64,000 bases of DNA, from contig JANJGN010000006.1 of NCBI GenBank assembly GCA_026770705.1, positions 10,416,001 to 10,480,000 on the forward strand. The letters run 5' to 3'. The DNA comes from Isurus oxyrinchus (lineage: Eukaryota). Made by a program: the position numbers. Below, piece by piece: positions 3,401 through 64,000 of the stretch. How positions within the stretch are numbered: the stretch's first letter is position 1; the number at the start of each line of letters is the position of its first letter.

Positions 3401-6400
3401 CTGGAAGACCAAAACGTTTCGGACAACTAAATAGCGTCTTTCACCGAGTTGATGATCCTCCAGCTGCAGTTGATGTTTGTCTCGGAGTGTGTCCCTGGGA
3501 TCAGCCCGTAGAGCACAAAGTCCTGTGTCACAGAACTGCTCGGGATGAACCTCGACAGAAACCACTGCATCTCTGTCCAGACCATCTTTGCAAAGGCACA
3601 ATCCACAAGGAGGTGAACAACAGTCTCGTCCCCCACCACAGCCACCTTGAGGGCAACGTGCAGAGGGGGTGAGATTCCTGGCATGTAGGAAGGATCTGAC
3701 GGGGAGGGCCATTCTCACCACCAGCCAAGCTATGTCTTGGCACTTGTTGGAAAGTCCTGGCAATGAGGCGTCCTGCCAAATGACTTTGTCAGTCTGCTCG
3801 GGGAACCATCCCACAGGATCCACCCTCTCCTTTTCCCGCAGGGCCTCTTAAGACGTTACGTGCCGACCTCTGCCTGATGGACCTGTGGTCAAAGGTGTTT
3901 CTCTGCATAAATTTTTCCACCGGGGAAAGGTGTTCCAACTACTTGGAGCATTCCGCGGCAGCGTGGCCAGACCCATCCTTCGCAACACCGGGACAGGTAG
4001 AACCTCAGCACGTAGTGACACTTGGTGTTTGCGTACCGAGGGTCTACGCACAGCTTGATGCAGCCTGACGGCCTGACCAAAGCCATTGCAGCCTCTCCTT
4101 GCAGTGATCACCCTGCGCCCCGACATTGGCGCAGGGGCTGCACGTAAGCATCTTTCAGTCATTCCATTACTTTTGCCCCACAAGTGTCCGCGGCCACCAA
4201 CCTGAAACGTAACTTTTTTAAGTCGGTGCAAGTTTCTCACGCGTGTGTCGAAAGTTTCCATTGAAAAATCACCATTTGCAGTGGAGGACGTTCCAACCGT
4301 CCCGGCACCTGGCAGGCGCAAGCGCCCAGGGTGCAGGTGTGACAGGCTTGAAGAGCGCCTGCGCCCTGCTCCTGCCCGGTTGACCAATCAGAGGCGGAGC
4401 AGGAGGAATGATGACTATTTCCTCTGCTGTACAGACATCAAGCCGGGAGAGCACCCAGCTCAACTGCACCTTCAATAGCTCAGCTGTTAGAGCGGAAAGC
4501 TATAGCTGTTCTGTGGCCATCCTTAGGTCGCTGGTTCAATTCTGGCCTAAAGCATATCCTTTATTCTTGGCCTCCATCCCCCACTGCTTTATATCCCTAC
4601 TACCCATATCCCCTCCAACAGGGGCACCTGTAATCTCGACGGTTGTTAAATGGGTATCGAAGGGCCGGACAAATGCTGGTGCTTCCCTACTGCCGGGAAA
4701 TGATCAGGTTAGGGCCGGGGTGAAGGACTCATGCATGCGGGACTCGGAGACCTCCTGCCGTGGCAAAGTGGCCGCACCGCGTAGAACGACGGTTTAAACG
4801 GAGCCTGAGGCAGTGCCCCCCAACCCCCACCCCCCCGCCCAATGTTAACTCTGAGGTAGTGTCTGCAGCGGATGATCATTCTTCAGTCGTTTTCCTGCCT
4901 TAACCTCTATCTGGGGGATTAGCTCAAATGGTAGAGTGCTCGCTTAGCATGTGAGAGGTAGTGGGATTGATGCCTGCATCTGTCAGTTGTACTTACTTAC
5001 TCAAACGGCATCGATTTTCTTCTTAAAAATGTTGACAATTTAAATTACTTTCATTTGGAAAGTACAGGCTAATATGCTCTTAATTTTGGTACATAAATGG
5101 TGCAGGAAAAGTGATGGCACAGGCAAGAAGGGTTGGCAATGCTTCTGGAATGGGGCATTATATTTCTCAATTTCTTGCTACTTCCAACCGTCTCCAATCG
5201 CCCGATGCCATTCGCATATCGCCTAAAGCCCAACACCCATCGCCCAATGCCCAACACCTAACATTCATCGCCCAACACACAACGCTCATCGCCCAACGCA
5301 CATCACTCAACACCCAACGACCATCGCTCAATGCCCAACACCCATCGACTAATACCCAACACCCATCGCCCAATGCCCAACACCCATCGCCCATCGCCCA
5401 ACACCCAAAGCCCAACATCCAATGCCCAACTGTTTACTGATTTCACCTGCTGTCCCTGCAGAGAGACAGGTCCCATTTAGAAGAGACTTGCCAGAGACTG
5501 GCTGGTGGAGAAATAACCAGGTGGTGCGTGTGGGAGGAAATGAGGGGTTCTGAGGGAACGAGAGAAGATGTGGGCAGAGATTCAGGACAAGGTTAGTAGC
5601 GAATGAACAGTGACCAGTGGACAGGGTTTGTTTGGCAGGGGTCTGGTGGGGGGGGGCGTGCTGGCGAACAGTGAACTGGGGATTGTGATGGGAGTGTTAG
5701 TAAATGGTGGTAAGGGATTAGAGCGTCGAAGTTAGTGTAGGGATTGGGATAGGGAGCAACTGGACAGCGGTTGGTGTTCAGTGGGAGGAGGCAGGAAAGA
5801 ATAATGAATAGGAGATTGGGGGTGGAGGGTAATGGGCTGGGTAGGGGTTGGGGCGAGGGGTTGGTAAACACTGGGTAGGGGATAGGGGTGGGGGAGGAGC
5901 ATGTTTAGTGGATGATCACGGTTCTGAGGTGAGGAGGGGAAATTTGGGTACAGGCAGTGGGGCAGAATGCAAGATTTAGTCCGGGAGTCGCAGCTTTCCC
6001 AAAAAGAGGGTCAAAGTCATTTACAGCTTTAAATGACTTCGCTAAGAAGAAAACATTTGGAAACACTTCATAAGCTAAACAAGCAGATAAGACATTCGAC
6101 ATAACAGGGGGAGAAGAGTTTACCGGTCCCAGATCAGACAAACCGATGGGGGAAGCAAACAGGGATATGCTGTTCTTCATAAGCAGGCAGTCTTCTCAGA
6201 GTGGTTCACTGGACCCAGATCTGGCAAACGCATGGAAGAAGAAGCGTGGTGCTGATCTCTGTAGCTGGAGCAATCTCTTCTGCTCTCAGTCTTCTTGAGC
6301 TAGATGTAAGTCCAAAGCCAGCATTGATCCAGTTTAAGAAGAATGGATCCTCCATCCAAAATATTCCCTCTTGAGAGCCCATTTATATACCTTATTTTAA

Positions 6401-63400: not shown

Positions 63401-64000
63401 ACTGGCAATCAATACGGTCCTAAATGGGTATTGGGGGGCAAGACAAATGCTGGTGAGTCCCTACTGCCGGGAAACGATCAGGTTAGGGCCGGGGTGAAGG
63501 ACGCGCGGGACTCGGAGAACTCCCGCCATAGCGCCGCGGAAAAGCGGCCACCCCGCCCCCTGCGGTGCGCGCGTGCACAGCGGCGGTTTAACACACCCTG
63601 AGGCAGCGCCTCCCAATGTTAACTTTGAGGTAGTGTCTGCAGCGGATGATCATTCTTTAGCCATTTTACGGCATGGATTTCTATCTGGGGGATTAGCTCA
63701 AATGGTAGAGCGCTCGCTTAGCATGTGAGAGGTAGCGGGATCAATGCCCGCATCCTCCACTTGTTGCTGTTTACTCAAACAGCACTGATTTTCATCTTAA
63801 AAATCTTGACAAACACAATTTCAATTACTTTCATTTGGAAACTACAGGCTAATATGCTCTTAATTTTGGTGCCCACATGGCCCAGGAACACAGATGACAC
63901 AGGCAAGAAGGGTTGGCAATGCATCTGGAATGGGCCACAATATTTCTCAATTTCTTGCTGCAACCAACCGCCCCCCAGCGCCCAATGCCCAACACACATC

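What the first reader, a model, noticed from the sequence alone, without database searches (positions are those of the whole stretch)
4322..64000. Homogenised macrosatellite of a two-gene tRNA-Tyr(GTA, intron)/tRNA-Ala(AGC) cassette: candidate tissue- or stage-specific tRNA supply locus
Seen: at least 28 head-to-tail ~2.2-kb units amplify only these two tRNAs, 1:1, with internal A/B boxes and T-tract terminators; 26 Tyr and 27 Ala copies keep their anticodons. Established: the Xenopus laevis 3.18-kb oocyte-type tRNA repeat (which includes an intron-containing Tyr and an Ala gene) and the clustered Bombyx silk-gland tRNA-Ala genes are amplified tRNA sets expressed in one cell type. Inference: this may be an undescribed equivalent, e.g. 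oocyte stockpiling or a gland making Tyr/Ala-rich structural protein. It could instead be a mostly silent satellite that captured the genes.
Basis: partly seen in the sequence, partly recalled or inferred. Interest (0 to 1): 0.75.

Follow-up and report, generated by a model that had tools for sequence, protein, structure and literature searches.

The report
Shark tandem tRNA-Tyr/tRNA-Ala gene array
A cartilaginous-fish genome carries at least 28 head-to-tail copies of a 2.2-kb unit holding one tyrosine and one alanine tRNA gene, a new example of the repeated tRNA gene blocks that frogs and zebrafish use to stock their eggs, though whether this one is switched on could not be tested.

Summary
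From 4318 to the window end there is one head-to-tail array of a ~2196-bp unit. It consists of a 141-bp edge fragment, one decayed unit, one unit with a dead Tyr gene, and 26 units at 97.7-100% identity. ARAGORN finds 26 Tyr-GTA genes (13-nt intron) and 27 Ala-AGC genes, and Rfam scores them at 44-58 bits. The flanking LINE's best named relatives are shark and ray proteins, so the window is probably elasmobranch.

The array evolves in concert. Its edges are decayed, it has two subfamilies, and multi-unit blocks have been copied recently (2 mismatches in 6588 bp).

New here: recent variants crowd into the tRNA bodies (15/159 sites) and their 20-nt flanks (5/80), against 35/1916 elsewhere. A CpG-island-like stretch lies between the two genes. 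CpG decay or ectopic gene conversion could give the same pattern.

Best reading: Pol III-competent, germline-transcribed, probably a maternal-type reserve (about 0.45). A mostly silent satellite remains a serious rival, and supply for one gland is unsupported. It is a new member of a known kind.

The parts
4318..4458 (+). Left edge of the array: a 141-bp fragment matching unit positions 2045-2185 (the stretch upstream of a Tyr gene)
   Evidence: blastn, 92.9% identity. Nothing left of 4318 matches the unit.
4469..6880 (+). Decayed outermost unit (u0). It holds a Tyr remnant at 4469-4554 (anticodon now ATA, 5 mispairs), a decayed Ala at 4913-4985 (AGC kept, G3:U70 lost) and an expanded 21/42-bp minisatellite at 5218-5430.
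   Evidence: (35.0 bits).
6881..9076 (+). Unit u1. The Tyr gene is dead (6881-6966, anticodon lost, 3 mispairs, 27.8 bits). The Ala gene at 7308-7380 is intact.
9077..64000 (+). Units u2-u27: 26 units with Tyr-GTA and Ala-AGC genes, 97.7-100% identical to the reference unit. The last unit is cut by the window end.
19691..19776 (+). Representative Tyr-GTA gene, majority allele (14 of 27 units). Exon 1 is 19691-19727, the 13-nt intron is 19728-19740 and exon 2 is 19741-19776.
   Evidence: 53.3 bits; all 21 cloverleaf pairs standard.
19788..19791 (+). First T4 run after the Tyr gene (+12 to +15), the likely Pol III terminator. A T5 run follows about 20 nt later.
   Evidence: A T run of at least 4 is present in all 27 Tyr trailers listed.
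19792..20117 (+). Stretch between the two genes, CpG-island-like: GC 0.54-0.63 and CpG observed/expected 0.82-1.06 in 200-bp windows.
   Evidence: The 350 bp upstream of Ala has CpG o/e 0.91.
20118..20190 (+). Representative Ala-AGC gene, majority allele (18 of 27 units). G3:U70 and A73 are present.
   Evidence: 55.1 bits; cloverleaf as the minimum-energy fold, z = -2.7.
20220..20223 (+). First T4 run after the Ala gene (+30 to +33).
   Evidence: It is present in all 27 Ala trailers listed.
15650..17494 (+). Short unit u5 (1845 bp), lacking about 350 bp of distal spacer (unit positions ~1799-2141).
50434..52278 (+). Short unit u21 (1845 bp) with the same deletion. It differs from u5 at 22 of 1844 aligned bases.
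17495..24082 (+). Three-unit block (u6-u8) copied at 52279-58866 (u22-u24), with 2 mismatches in 6588 bp.
26279..31412 (+). Block (u10 to part of u12) copied at 58867-64000 (u25-u27), with 1 mismatch and 2 gap bases in 5134 bp.
1165..2799 (-). Flank, not part of the array: a LINE reverse-transcriptase reading frame used as the clue to the taxon.
   Evidence: Pfam RVT_1 (4.6e-20) and zf-RVT (6.1e-11). Best named relatives are from sharks and rays.

Best explanation
This is a real, young tandem array (macrosatellite) in an elasmobranch genome. It was made by amplifying a pre-existing pair of neighbouring Pol III genes, an intron-containing tRNA-Tyr(GTA) and a tRNA-Ala(AGC) 341 bp downstream, together with about 1.7 kb of non-coding spacer.

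Shown:
- The array is kept uniform by unequal crossing-over and gene conversion. Its edges are decayed, it has two subfamilies, and multi-unit blocks were copied recently.
- Most copies still encode foldable tRNAs with the right anticodon, identity elements, intron position and terminators.

Inferred:
- Each gene is an independent Pol III unit using its internal A and B boxes.
- The genes are, or recently were, transcribed in the germline. That would explain why new mutations pile up in and right next to the tRNA bodies, and why a CpG island survives between them.
- The array most likely serves as a high-copy reserve of the maternal (oocyte/early-embryo) type, as tandem tRNA genes do in Xenopus and zebrafish.

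My odds: real array of mostly intact genes 0.97; germline-transcribed 0.55; maternal-type supply specifically about 0.45. The confidence given for this explanation (0.5) refers to the functional part, not to the existence of the array.
For: Structure:
- 26 Tyr and 27 Ala genes called, alternating on one strand, scoring 44.4-58.1 Rfam bits.
- 22 of 25 intervals are 2195-2198 bp and units are 97.7-100% identical.
- Pairwise divergence among 26 full units is 0.0-2.9%.

Competence (28 positions of each gene examined):
- Tyr: 26 keep GTA and 25 also have all 21 cloverleaf pairs standard.
- Ala: 28 keep AGC, 25 have all 21 pairs, 27 keep G3:U70, and 23 show no lesion at all.
- T4 runs lie at +12 (Tyr) and +30 (Ala) in all listed trailers.

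Signs of germline activity:
- Low-frequency variant sites (carried by 4 units or fewer) number 15/159 in tRNA bodies and 5/80 in the 20-nt flanks, against 35/1916 in the rest (Fisher 2e-6 and 0.02).
- The excess holds at non-CpG sites, 8/139 against 31/1889 (p = 0.004).
- Edge unit u1 has 9/86 changes in Tyr against 5/1655 in the distal spacer.
- C>T against G>A on the coding strand is 6:2 in tRNA bodies and 5:13 elsewhere (p = 0.04).
- CpG o/e is 0.82-1.06 between the genes and 0.0-0.5 in most of the spacer.

Literature:
- tRNA loci mutate 7- to 10-fold faster through transcription-associated mutagenesis (PMC6130373, Significance section).
- CpG density, a nearby TTTT and a divergent 5' flank predict active tRNA genes (PMC6961574, passages).
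- Oocyte-type tandem tRNA genes in Xenopus recruit Pol III at genome activation (PMC11500080, passages).
- Elasmobranchs have unusually many tRNA loci, and sharks many intron-containing ones (preprint 10.1101/2025.06.08.657570, passages).
Against: There are no expression, chromatin or methylation data of any kind.

The excess of variants in the tRNA bodies also means that no purifying selection on single copies is visible. In the cruder count, 15/159 sites segregate against 82/2036 in the spacer (p = 0.004).

The hot zone has other possible causes:
- CpG decay under methylation. CpG-class sites vary at 7/20 in tRNA bodies and 9/108 elsewhere.
- Ectopic conversion from dispersed Tyr and Ala genes. 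This would explain the CpG-restoring variants in u2, u3, u4, u13 and u18.
- Clustered damage, as in u1.

The majority alleles carry what look like fixed CpG-decay changes: Tyr A57 and T62, the latter at the last B-box base, and Ala T40 and A57.

Six Ala copies and three Tyr copies have a mispair, a lost anticodon, a lost identity pair or A18.

The CpG island may only reflect the state of the single-copy ancestor, because the array is young.

The 350 bp upstream of Tyr has CpG o/e of only 0.35.

High anticodon redundancy goes with inactivity in mammals (PMC6961574, passage).

The nearest structural analogue, the Arabidopsis Ser-Tyr-Tyr cluster of 27 units, is silent in most tissues (PMC7544208, abstract and passages).

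All the variant counts are small, and the units are not independent samples.
Confidence: 0.5

Rival explanations
1. It is a mostly silent, heterochromatic satellite. A tRNA gene pair was amplified as a passenger by unequal crossing-over, the copies are repressed, and they decay slowly while homogenisation keeps them looking intact.
For: Variation in the tRNA bodies is higher than in the spacer, not lower.

The edge copies are dead.

CpG-class sites are the most variable class, as expected if they are methylated.

The majority alleles carry CpG-decay-type changes.

The Arabidopsis cluster of 27 Ser-Tyr-Tyr units is methylated and silent in most tissues (PMC7544208).
Against: Non-CpG sites in the tRNA bodies are also about 3.5 times as variable as elsewhere. 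Simple neglect would make bodies equal to spacer, not hotter.

The excess extends into the 20-nt flanks, and its strand bias differs from that of the spacer.

The CpG island between the genes has not decayed in the interior units.

Of 9 stem variants in u2-u27, 6 keep the pair (binomial p = 0.04 against 1/3).

Even the Arabidopsis cluster is reactivated in one cell type (PMC12308677, abstract).
Confidence: 0.33
2. It supplies tRNA to a single somatic gland or tissue that makes a Tyr/Ala-rich structural protein. This is the reader's silk-gland analogy, for example an egg-case or fin-ray protein.
For: The evidence is by analogy only. Bombyx silk-gland tRNA-Ala genes are clustered, and the Arabidopsis Ser/Tyr cluster supports a Ser/Tyr/Pro-rich glycoprotein in root-cap cells (PMC12308677, abstract and discussion passage). 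That shark egg-case and fin-ray proteins are Tyr-rich is my recollection and comes from no call.
Against: Nothing in the window links the array to any protein. No coding sequence was found in the spacer (0 of 13 reading frames matched Pfam). A heritable mutation signature needs transcription in the germline, not in a somatic gland. The Tyr-plus-Ala pairing may simply be inherited from an old neighbouring gene pair.
Confidence: 0.08
3. Part of the array is an assembly artefact. The near-identical blocks (u6-8 = u22-24, u10-12 = u25-27) could be one stretch laid down twice, or two haplotypes joined in series.
For: The blocks differ by 2 of 6588 and 1 of 5134 bases. That is far less than the roughly 1% typical between other units.
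Against: The unit that leads the second copy (u21) differs from its counterpart u5 at 22 of 1844 bases. Unit u9 has no counterpart in the second copy. So the two stretches are not simple duplicates. Recent multi-unit duplication is normal for tandem arrays. Even without the second copy, about 20 units remain.
Confidence: 0.07

Closest known systems
Xenopus laevis 3.18-kb tandem tRNA repeat (oocyte-type tRNA genes)
   Same: It is a head-to-tail repeat of a few kb carrying several Pol III tRNA genes in one orientation in a vertebrate. It is used for oocyte and early-embryo supply, and Pol III is recruited to these repeats at genome activation (PMC11500080, passages; titles of Muller 1987 and Stutz 1989 seen in a reference list).
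   Different: That unit has eight genes and this one has two. The two spacers are not known to be related. Its copy number and expression are established, and here neither is known. I could not read the primary papers (not held), so the gene content of the Xenopus unit is recalled.
Zebrafish repetitive (chromosome 4) maternal tRNA genes
   Same: [quoted passage not shown] Maternal and zygotic pools differ (PMC11574265, abstract).
   Different: Those are very large mixed clusters of many isotypes in heterochromatin. This is a clean two-gene 2.2-kb period. Whether the shark array's isodecoders differ from dispersed copies cannot be seen from one window.
Arabidopsis thaliana Ser-Tyr-Tyr (SYY) tRNA gene cluster
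   Same: It is a tandem unit that includes intron-containing Tyr genes plus one other isotype, repeated 27 times. It has a core of major alleles flanked by variable regions richer in minor alleles and pseudogenes (PMC7544208; PMC12308677, section 7 passage). Here too the majority alleles fill the interior and the dead copies sit at the edge.
   Different: It is a plant cluster of independent origin, shown to be methylated and silent except in root-cap cells. Nothing comparable is known here.
Bombyx mori silk-gland tRNA-Ala gene cluster
   Same: These are clustered tRNA-Ala genes tied to one cell type's demand (cited in PMC12308677, discussion passage).
   Different: It is an insect cluster of a single isotype whose tissue specificity has been shown. 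I saw it only as a citation.
High tRNA locus counts in elasmobranch genomes (Squalomix preprint)
   Same: The preprint reports that elasmobranchs stand out in tRNA locus number, that sharks have many intron-containing tRNA loci, and that larger genomes hold more tandem copies (10.1101/2025.06.08.657570, passages). An array adding 26 intron-containing Tyr genes per 60 kb is exactly the kind of locus that would produce those counts.
   Different: The passages I saw describe totals, a stingray cluster beside histone genes and selenocysteine tRNAs, but no Tyr/Ala repeat unit. Its supplements were not available to me.

Membership tests
Eukaryotic nuclear tRNA genes (Pol III type 2 promoters) | Cloverleaf recognised by a tRNA covariance model above the curated threshold | tested here: met
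   54 of 55 tRNA matches exceed the Rfam gathering score of 29. The 53 main genes score 44.4-58.1 bits, the copy at 4913 scores 35.0, and the copy at 6881 scores 27.8 and fails.
Eukaryotic nuclear tRNA genes (Pol III type 2 promoters) | Anticodon and fully paired stems in each copy | tested here: met
   Tyr: 26 of 28 keep GTA and 25 of 28 have all 21 pairs standard. Ala: 28 of 28 keep AGC and 25 of 28 have all 21 pairs. u2 and u4 have A18 in place of G18.
Eukaryotic nuclear tRNA genes (Pol III type 2 promoters) | Internal A and B boxes | tested here: inconclusive
   The D-loop and T-loop sequences can be read. I compared them with the textbook box consensus only from memory. The A box looks standard in both genes. 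The Tyr majority allele differs at the last B-box base (T62) and has A57.
Eukaryotic nuclear tRNA genes (Pol III type 2 promoters) | Run of at least 4 T shortly downstream (terminator) | tested here: met
   T4 lies at +12 after Tyr and +30 after Ala in the consensus. It is present in every trailer allele listed for the 27 units.
Eukaryotic nuclear tRNA genes (Pol III type 2 promoters) | Isotype identity elements: C1:G72 and A73 for eukaryotic Tyr, G3:U70 for Ala (rules recalled as textbook knowledge) | tested here: met
   The sequences show C1, G72 and A73 in Tyr. G3:T70 is present in 27 of 28 Ala copies and lost in u0.
Eukaryotic nuclear tRNA genes (Pol III type 2 promoters) | Tyr intron at the canonical 37/38 position | tested here: met
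   The Rfam alignment places a 16-nt stretch where the model has 3, in the anticodon loop directly after the anticodon. That gives 13 extra bases after position 37.
Maternal/oocyte-type tandem tRNA gene arrays (Xenopus, zebrafish) | Head-to-tail repeat unit carrying tRNA genes in one orientation | tested here: met
Maternal/oocyte-type tandem tRNA gene arrays (Xenopus, zebrafish) | High copy number (hundreds or more) | tested here: inconclusive
   There are 28 units plus a fragment in the window, and the array runs off the right end. The total is unknown.
Maternal/oocyte-type tandem tRNA gene arrays (Xenopus, zebrafish) | Array isodecoders distinct from the dispersed (somatic) genes | not testable with these tools
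   The rest of this genome is not available, and the only DNA collection open is bacterial and archaeal. Within the window, the decayed Ala copy (TG) and the array (CA) point to a lost CpG at Ala 56-57. For Tyr, u3 keeps G57 and a few units keep C62.
Maternal/oocyte-type tandem tRNA gene arrays (Xenopus, zebrafish) | Expression in oocytes or early embryos and repression elsewhere | not testable with these tools
   There are no RNA or chromatin data. The only proxies are the mutation hot zone and the CpG island.
Epigenetically silenced clustered tDNAs (Arabidopsis SYY type) | Dense DNA methylation and heterochromatin over the repeats | not testable with these tools
   The sequence proxies conflict. 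CpG o/e is about 1 between the genes, yet CpG-class sites are the most variable class.
tRNA-derived SINE or other retroposed copies | Dispersed copies with an A-rich or LINE-derived tail and target-site duplications; no intron | tested here: not met
   The copies are contiguous 2.2-kb DNA units in register. The Tyr intron is retained. The genes are followed by the same long spacer in every unit.

The most novel reading that the evidence does not exclude
The array is the cartilaginous-fish counterpart of the frog and zebrafish maternal tRNA gene repeats. It would be a dedicated, germline-transcribed Tyr/Ala tRNA factory whose own isodecoders (Tyr A57/U62, Ala U40/A57) are laid down in the very large shark oocyte. 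That would place tandem 'oocyte-type' tRNA genes at the base of jawed vertebrates. It would also give a case where transcription-associated mutagenesis can be read directly, copy against copy, inside a single array.
Probability: 0.3. Interest if true: 0.6.

Novelty: new member of a known kind. Interest (0 to 1): 0.4.

Why it matters
Tandem tRNA gene arrays are poorly assembled and rarely analysed in vertebrates outside frog and zebrafish. This one gives a concrete unit behind the recently reported excess of tRNA loci, especially intron-containing ones, in shark genomes.

Its 28 near-identical copies also act as an internal control. They show a roughly five-fold concentration of new mutations in and beside the tRNA bodies. 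This cautions against the common assumption that 'bodies mutate like spacers' means 'silent pseudogenes'.

If expression data confirm germline or oocyte activity, maternal-type tRNA arrays would be shared across jawed vertebrates. If the array is silent, it is a vertebrate parallel to the silenced Arabidopsis Ser-Tyr-Tyr cluster.

Tried and rejected
- **TRF.** It cannot see a 2.2-kb period and found only a 42-bp minisatellite. I used blastn of one unit instead.
- **First variant count.** The first count of segregating sites included alignment artefacts: 13 false sites at the edge of the 350-bp deletion in u5 and u21, and a cluster beside a small deletion in u2. I re-counted with these stretches removed and with only low-frequency variants. 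The roughly 22 linked subfamily differences confined to unit positions 913-1632 look like one conversion event rather than independent mutations.
- **Minimum-energy folding of the Tyr precursor.** This gave no clean cloverleaf and z-scores near 0. I set it aside as uninformative for intron-containing precursors and relied on the covariance-model alignment and explicit pair checks.
- **Coding or transposon content in the spacer.** 0 of 13 reading frames of 72-131 aa from u1/u2 matched Pfam at E <= 0.1. No repeat library for eukaryotes was available.
- **Rfam.** It found nothing but tRNA. Three sub-threshold 'Plastid-ycf2' matches (about 26 bits against a gathering score of 65.7) lie antisense to Tyr genes and are chance.
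- **Literature.** Six searches found no description of a Tyr/Ala tandem unit in cartilaginous fish. The library lacks most subscription journals and all supplements, so this is weak evidence that it is unpublished.
- **Primary papers.** The Xenopus repeat and Bombyx cluster papers are not held.
- **Fixed CpG-decay changes.** I considered using the four in the majority alleles, all tolerated by the structure, as evidence of selection. By my own enumeration most possible CpG transitions in these genes would be tolerated, so four of four is not significant, and I dropped it.
- **SINE or retroposon origin.** Rejected (see the membership test).
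Full report
**Observation.** ARAGORN finds 53 tRNA genes in the window, all on the + strand and strictly alternating. There are 26 Tyr(GTA) genes of 87 nt and 27 Ala(AGC) genes. The window has no N. A blastn of one unit (30671-32865) against the window gives a continuous series of matches from 4318 to 64000:
- a 141-bp tail of a unit (4318-4458, 92.9% identity);
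- one decayed unit (4469-5239 at 77.3%, and 5383-6877 at 92.6%);
- 27 further units from 6881 at 97.7-100%, the last cut by the window end.

Of the 25 Tyr-to-Tyr intervals, 22 are 2195-2198 bp, one is 2182 bp and two are 1845 bp.

**Unit anatomy.** I number units u0 (4469), u1 (6881) to u27 (63260). Each unit has these parts, in order:
- the Tyr gene (86 nt: 37 nt, a 13-nt intron, then 36 nt);
- a T4 run at +12;
- a 341-bp GC-rich stretch;
- the Ala gene (73 nt);
- a T4 run at +30;
- about 1.7 kb of spacer.

Rfam matches only the tRNA family: 44.4-58.1 bits for the 53 genes, 35.0 for the decayed Ala at 4913, and 27.8 (below threshold) for the Tyr at 6881. None of the 13 spacer reading frames I tried matches Pfam. 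I scored only genomic sequence. I did not build or search a spliced, intron-less Tyr sequence.

**Array dynamics.** Pairwise divergence among the 26 full units is 0.0-2.9%. Identity to the interior falls towards the left edge, as expected when unequal crossing-over homogenises the interior and misses the edge.

Two subfamilies differ by about 22 linked sites confined to unit positions 913-1632. This looks like a converted patch from a diverged copy.

Two units (u5 and u21) share a deletion of about 350 bp. Multi-unit blocks have been copied very recently:
- u6-u8 against u22-u24: 2 mismatches in 6588 bp;
- u10-u12 against u25-u27: 1 mismatch and 2 gap bases in 5134 bp.

The leading unit of the second copy, u21, differs from u5 at 22 of 1844 bases, and u9 has no counterpart. 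So this is not a plain assembly duplicate, although only reads can settle that.

**Intactness (28 positions of each gene).**
- Tyr: 26 keep GTA, and 25 also have all 21 cloverleaf pairs standard. u3 has an A-C mispair. u0 and u1 are dead.
- Ala: all 28 keep AGC, and 25 have all 21 pairs. u14 and u21 have one mispair each. u0 has lost the G3:U70 pair. u2 and u4 have A18.
- 23 Ala copies show no lesion.

Among u1-u27 there are 10 Tyr alleles (majority in 14 units) and 7 Ala alleles (majority in 18 units). The majority alleles carry what look like old CpG losses. For Ala 56-57, the array has CA while the decayed copy at 4913 has TG, so the ancestor was most simply CG. For Tyr 57, only u3 keeps G. 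For Tyr 62, four units have C within a CpG and the rest have T. These changes leave a purine at position 57 or a G-U pair.

**Where new mutations fall.** The bodies in fact vary more.
- Crude count (u2-u26): 15/159 segregating sites in tRNA bodies against 82/2036 elsewhere (p = 0.004).
- After removing alignment artefacts and keeping variants carried by 4 units or fewer: 15/159 in bodies, 5/80 in the 20-nt flanks and 35/1916 in the rest (p = 2e-6 and 0.02).
- Non-CpG sites: 8/139 against 31/1889 (p = 0.004).
- CpG-class sites: 7/20 against 9/108 (p = 0.004).
- The whole Tyr-to-Ala segment (positions 1-520) has 27/520 against 27/1633 in the distal spacer (p = 3e-5).
- Edge units agree. u1 has 9/86 changes in Tyr and 9/301 between the genes, against 5/1655 in the distal spacer. 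u0 has 11/84 in Tyr and 8/73 in Ala, against 93/1639.
- On the coding strand, C>T against G>A is 6:2 in bodies and 5:13 elsewhere (p = 0.04, from counts I took by hand).
- Of 9 stem variants in u2-u27, 6 keep a standard pair (p = 0.04 against an expected one third). A coding-strand C>T bias would produce the same result without selection.

**CpG landscape.** CpG observed/expected is 0.82-1.06 in the 200-bp windows between the two genes, 0.0-0.5 in most of the spacer, and 0.48 in the left flank. The 350 bp upstream of Ala score 0.91, and those upstream of Tyr score 0.35. Because the array is young, this mainly records the history of the founding gene pair.

**Taxon.** The left flank holds LINE fragments. 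A 544-aa frame at 1165-2799 (-) has RVT_1 and zf-RVT domains. Its best named relatives are from Cetorhinus maximus (77% identity over 62% of the query), Mobula, Heterodontus, Hemiscyllium, Heptranchias and Scyliorhinus. The atlas search points to Chordata. I conclude that the window is elasmobranch, probably a shark, with the species undetermined. It is not human.

**What is known.**
- Transcribed tRNA genes are reported to mutate 7- to 10-fold faster than the genome average (PMC6130373, Significance section).
- CpG density, a nearby TTTT and a divergent 5' flank predict active tRNA genes in mammals, while many same-anticodon copies predict inactivity (PMC6961574, passages).
- In Xenopus, oocyte-type tandem tRNA genes recruit Pol III at genome activation (PMC11500080, passages). 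For the 3.18-kb repeat and the oocyte and somatic Tyr genes I saw only titles.
- The Arabidopsis Ser-Tyr-Tyr unit is repeated 27 times. It is silent in most tissues but active in root-cap cells, where it supports a Ser/Tyr/Pro-rich glycoprotein (PMC7544208 and PMC12308677, abstracts and passages).
- A 2025 preprint reports that elasmobranchs have unusually many tRNA loci and that sharks have many intron-containing ones (10.1101/2025.06.08.657570, passages).
- Six searches found no description of this Tyr/Ala unit. Supplements were closed and may list such loci.

**Verdict.** The array is real (0.97) and most of its genes look Pol III-competent. The mutation hot zone over the genes and their flanks, with its strand bias, together with the surviving CpG island, is what germline transcription would leave. 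I put germline activity at about 0.55 and a maternal-type reserve at about 0.45. A mostly silent satellite is at about 0.33, because CpG decay, ectopic conversion and small numbers can mimic the signal. Supply to one gland is at about 0.08. A partial assembly artefact is at about 0.07.

It is a new member of a known kind. It is moderately interesting as the first concrete unit of this sort that I could find for cartilaginous fish, and as a clean within-array view of mutation at tRNA genes.

**Limits.**
- No eukaryotic genome collection, tRNAscan-SE, repeat library, reads or expression data were available.
- The variant counts are small, and the units share ancestry.
- The A/B-box consensus, the identity rules, the Xenopus unit's gene content and the Tyr-richness of shark structural proteins are recalled, not taken from a call.

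Noticed in passing
window 544-1684 and 2941-4064; reading frames at 1165-2799 (-) and 3272-3847 (-): The left flank holds two copies of the 3' part of a LINE (RVT_1 + zf-RVT) as a direct repeat about 2389 bp apart at 88-97% identity. The tRNA array starts about 250 bp to the right of the second copy.
   Followed up: partly
window 5218-5430 (u0); compare 7595-7642 in u1: A C/A-rich motif is present as a short run (7-nt period, 6.9 copies) in an intact unit. In the decayed edge unit it has grown into a 21/42-bp minisatellite of about 200 bp.
   Followed up: partly
window 6906-6933 (Tyr of u1): Six of the nine changes in this dead Tyr copy lie within tRNA positions 26-40 and include four transversions, while the unit's distal spacer has 5 changes in 1655 bp. 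This could be a mutation cluster or a short conversion from a diverged pseudogene. It is unexplained.
   Followed up: partly
window 50434-52278 (u21) against 15650-17494 (u5): The two deletion-bearing units differ at 22 of 1844 bases, although the three units that follow each of them differ at 2 of 6588. u21 is a mosaic with subfamily-B bases at unit positions 921-1125 plus about 10 private changes.
   Followed up: partly
unit positions 913-1632, e.g. window 27191-27910 in u10: About 22 linked differences define a second subfamily (u10-u18, u25 and u26, in varying combinations) and are confined to this roughly 700-bp patch of spacer. This suggests conversion from another, diverged array copy outside the window.
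   Followed up: no
window 32781-32785 and the same place in every unit (about 85 bp upstream of Tyr): A CCAAT motif within a GC-rich stretch lies just upstream of each Tyr gene (read). Whether it is a Pol II-type promoter remnant or a chance match was not tested. The shark preprint notes tRNA clusters beside histone genes.
   Followed up: no
window ~31480-31980 and the same place in every unit: About 500 bp of spacer is strongly G-rich and C-poor on the + strand, with short imperfect internal repeats (read). CpA is over-represented there (o/e up to 2.9).
   Followed up: no
window 379-407: An (AT) microsatellite of 14.5 copies lies in the left flank.
   Followed up: no
window 9077-9163, 32866-32952 and 43846-43932 (- strand): Sub-threshold Rfam matches to 'Plastid-ycf2' (25.8-26.2 bits against a gathering score of 65.7) lie antisense to the three best-scoring Tyr genes. 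I take them as chance likeness.
   Followed up: yes
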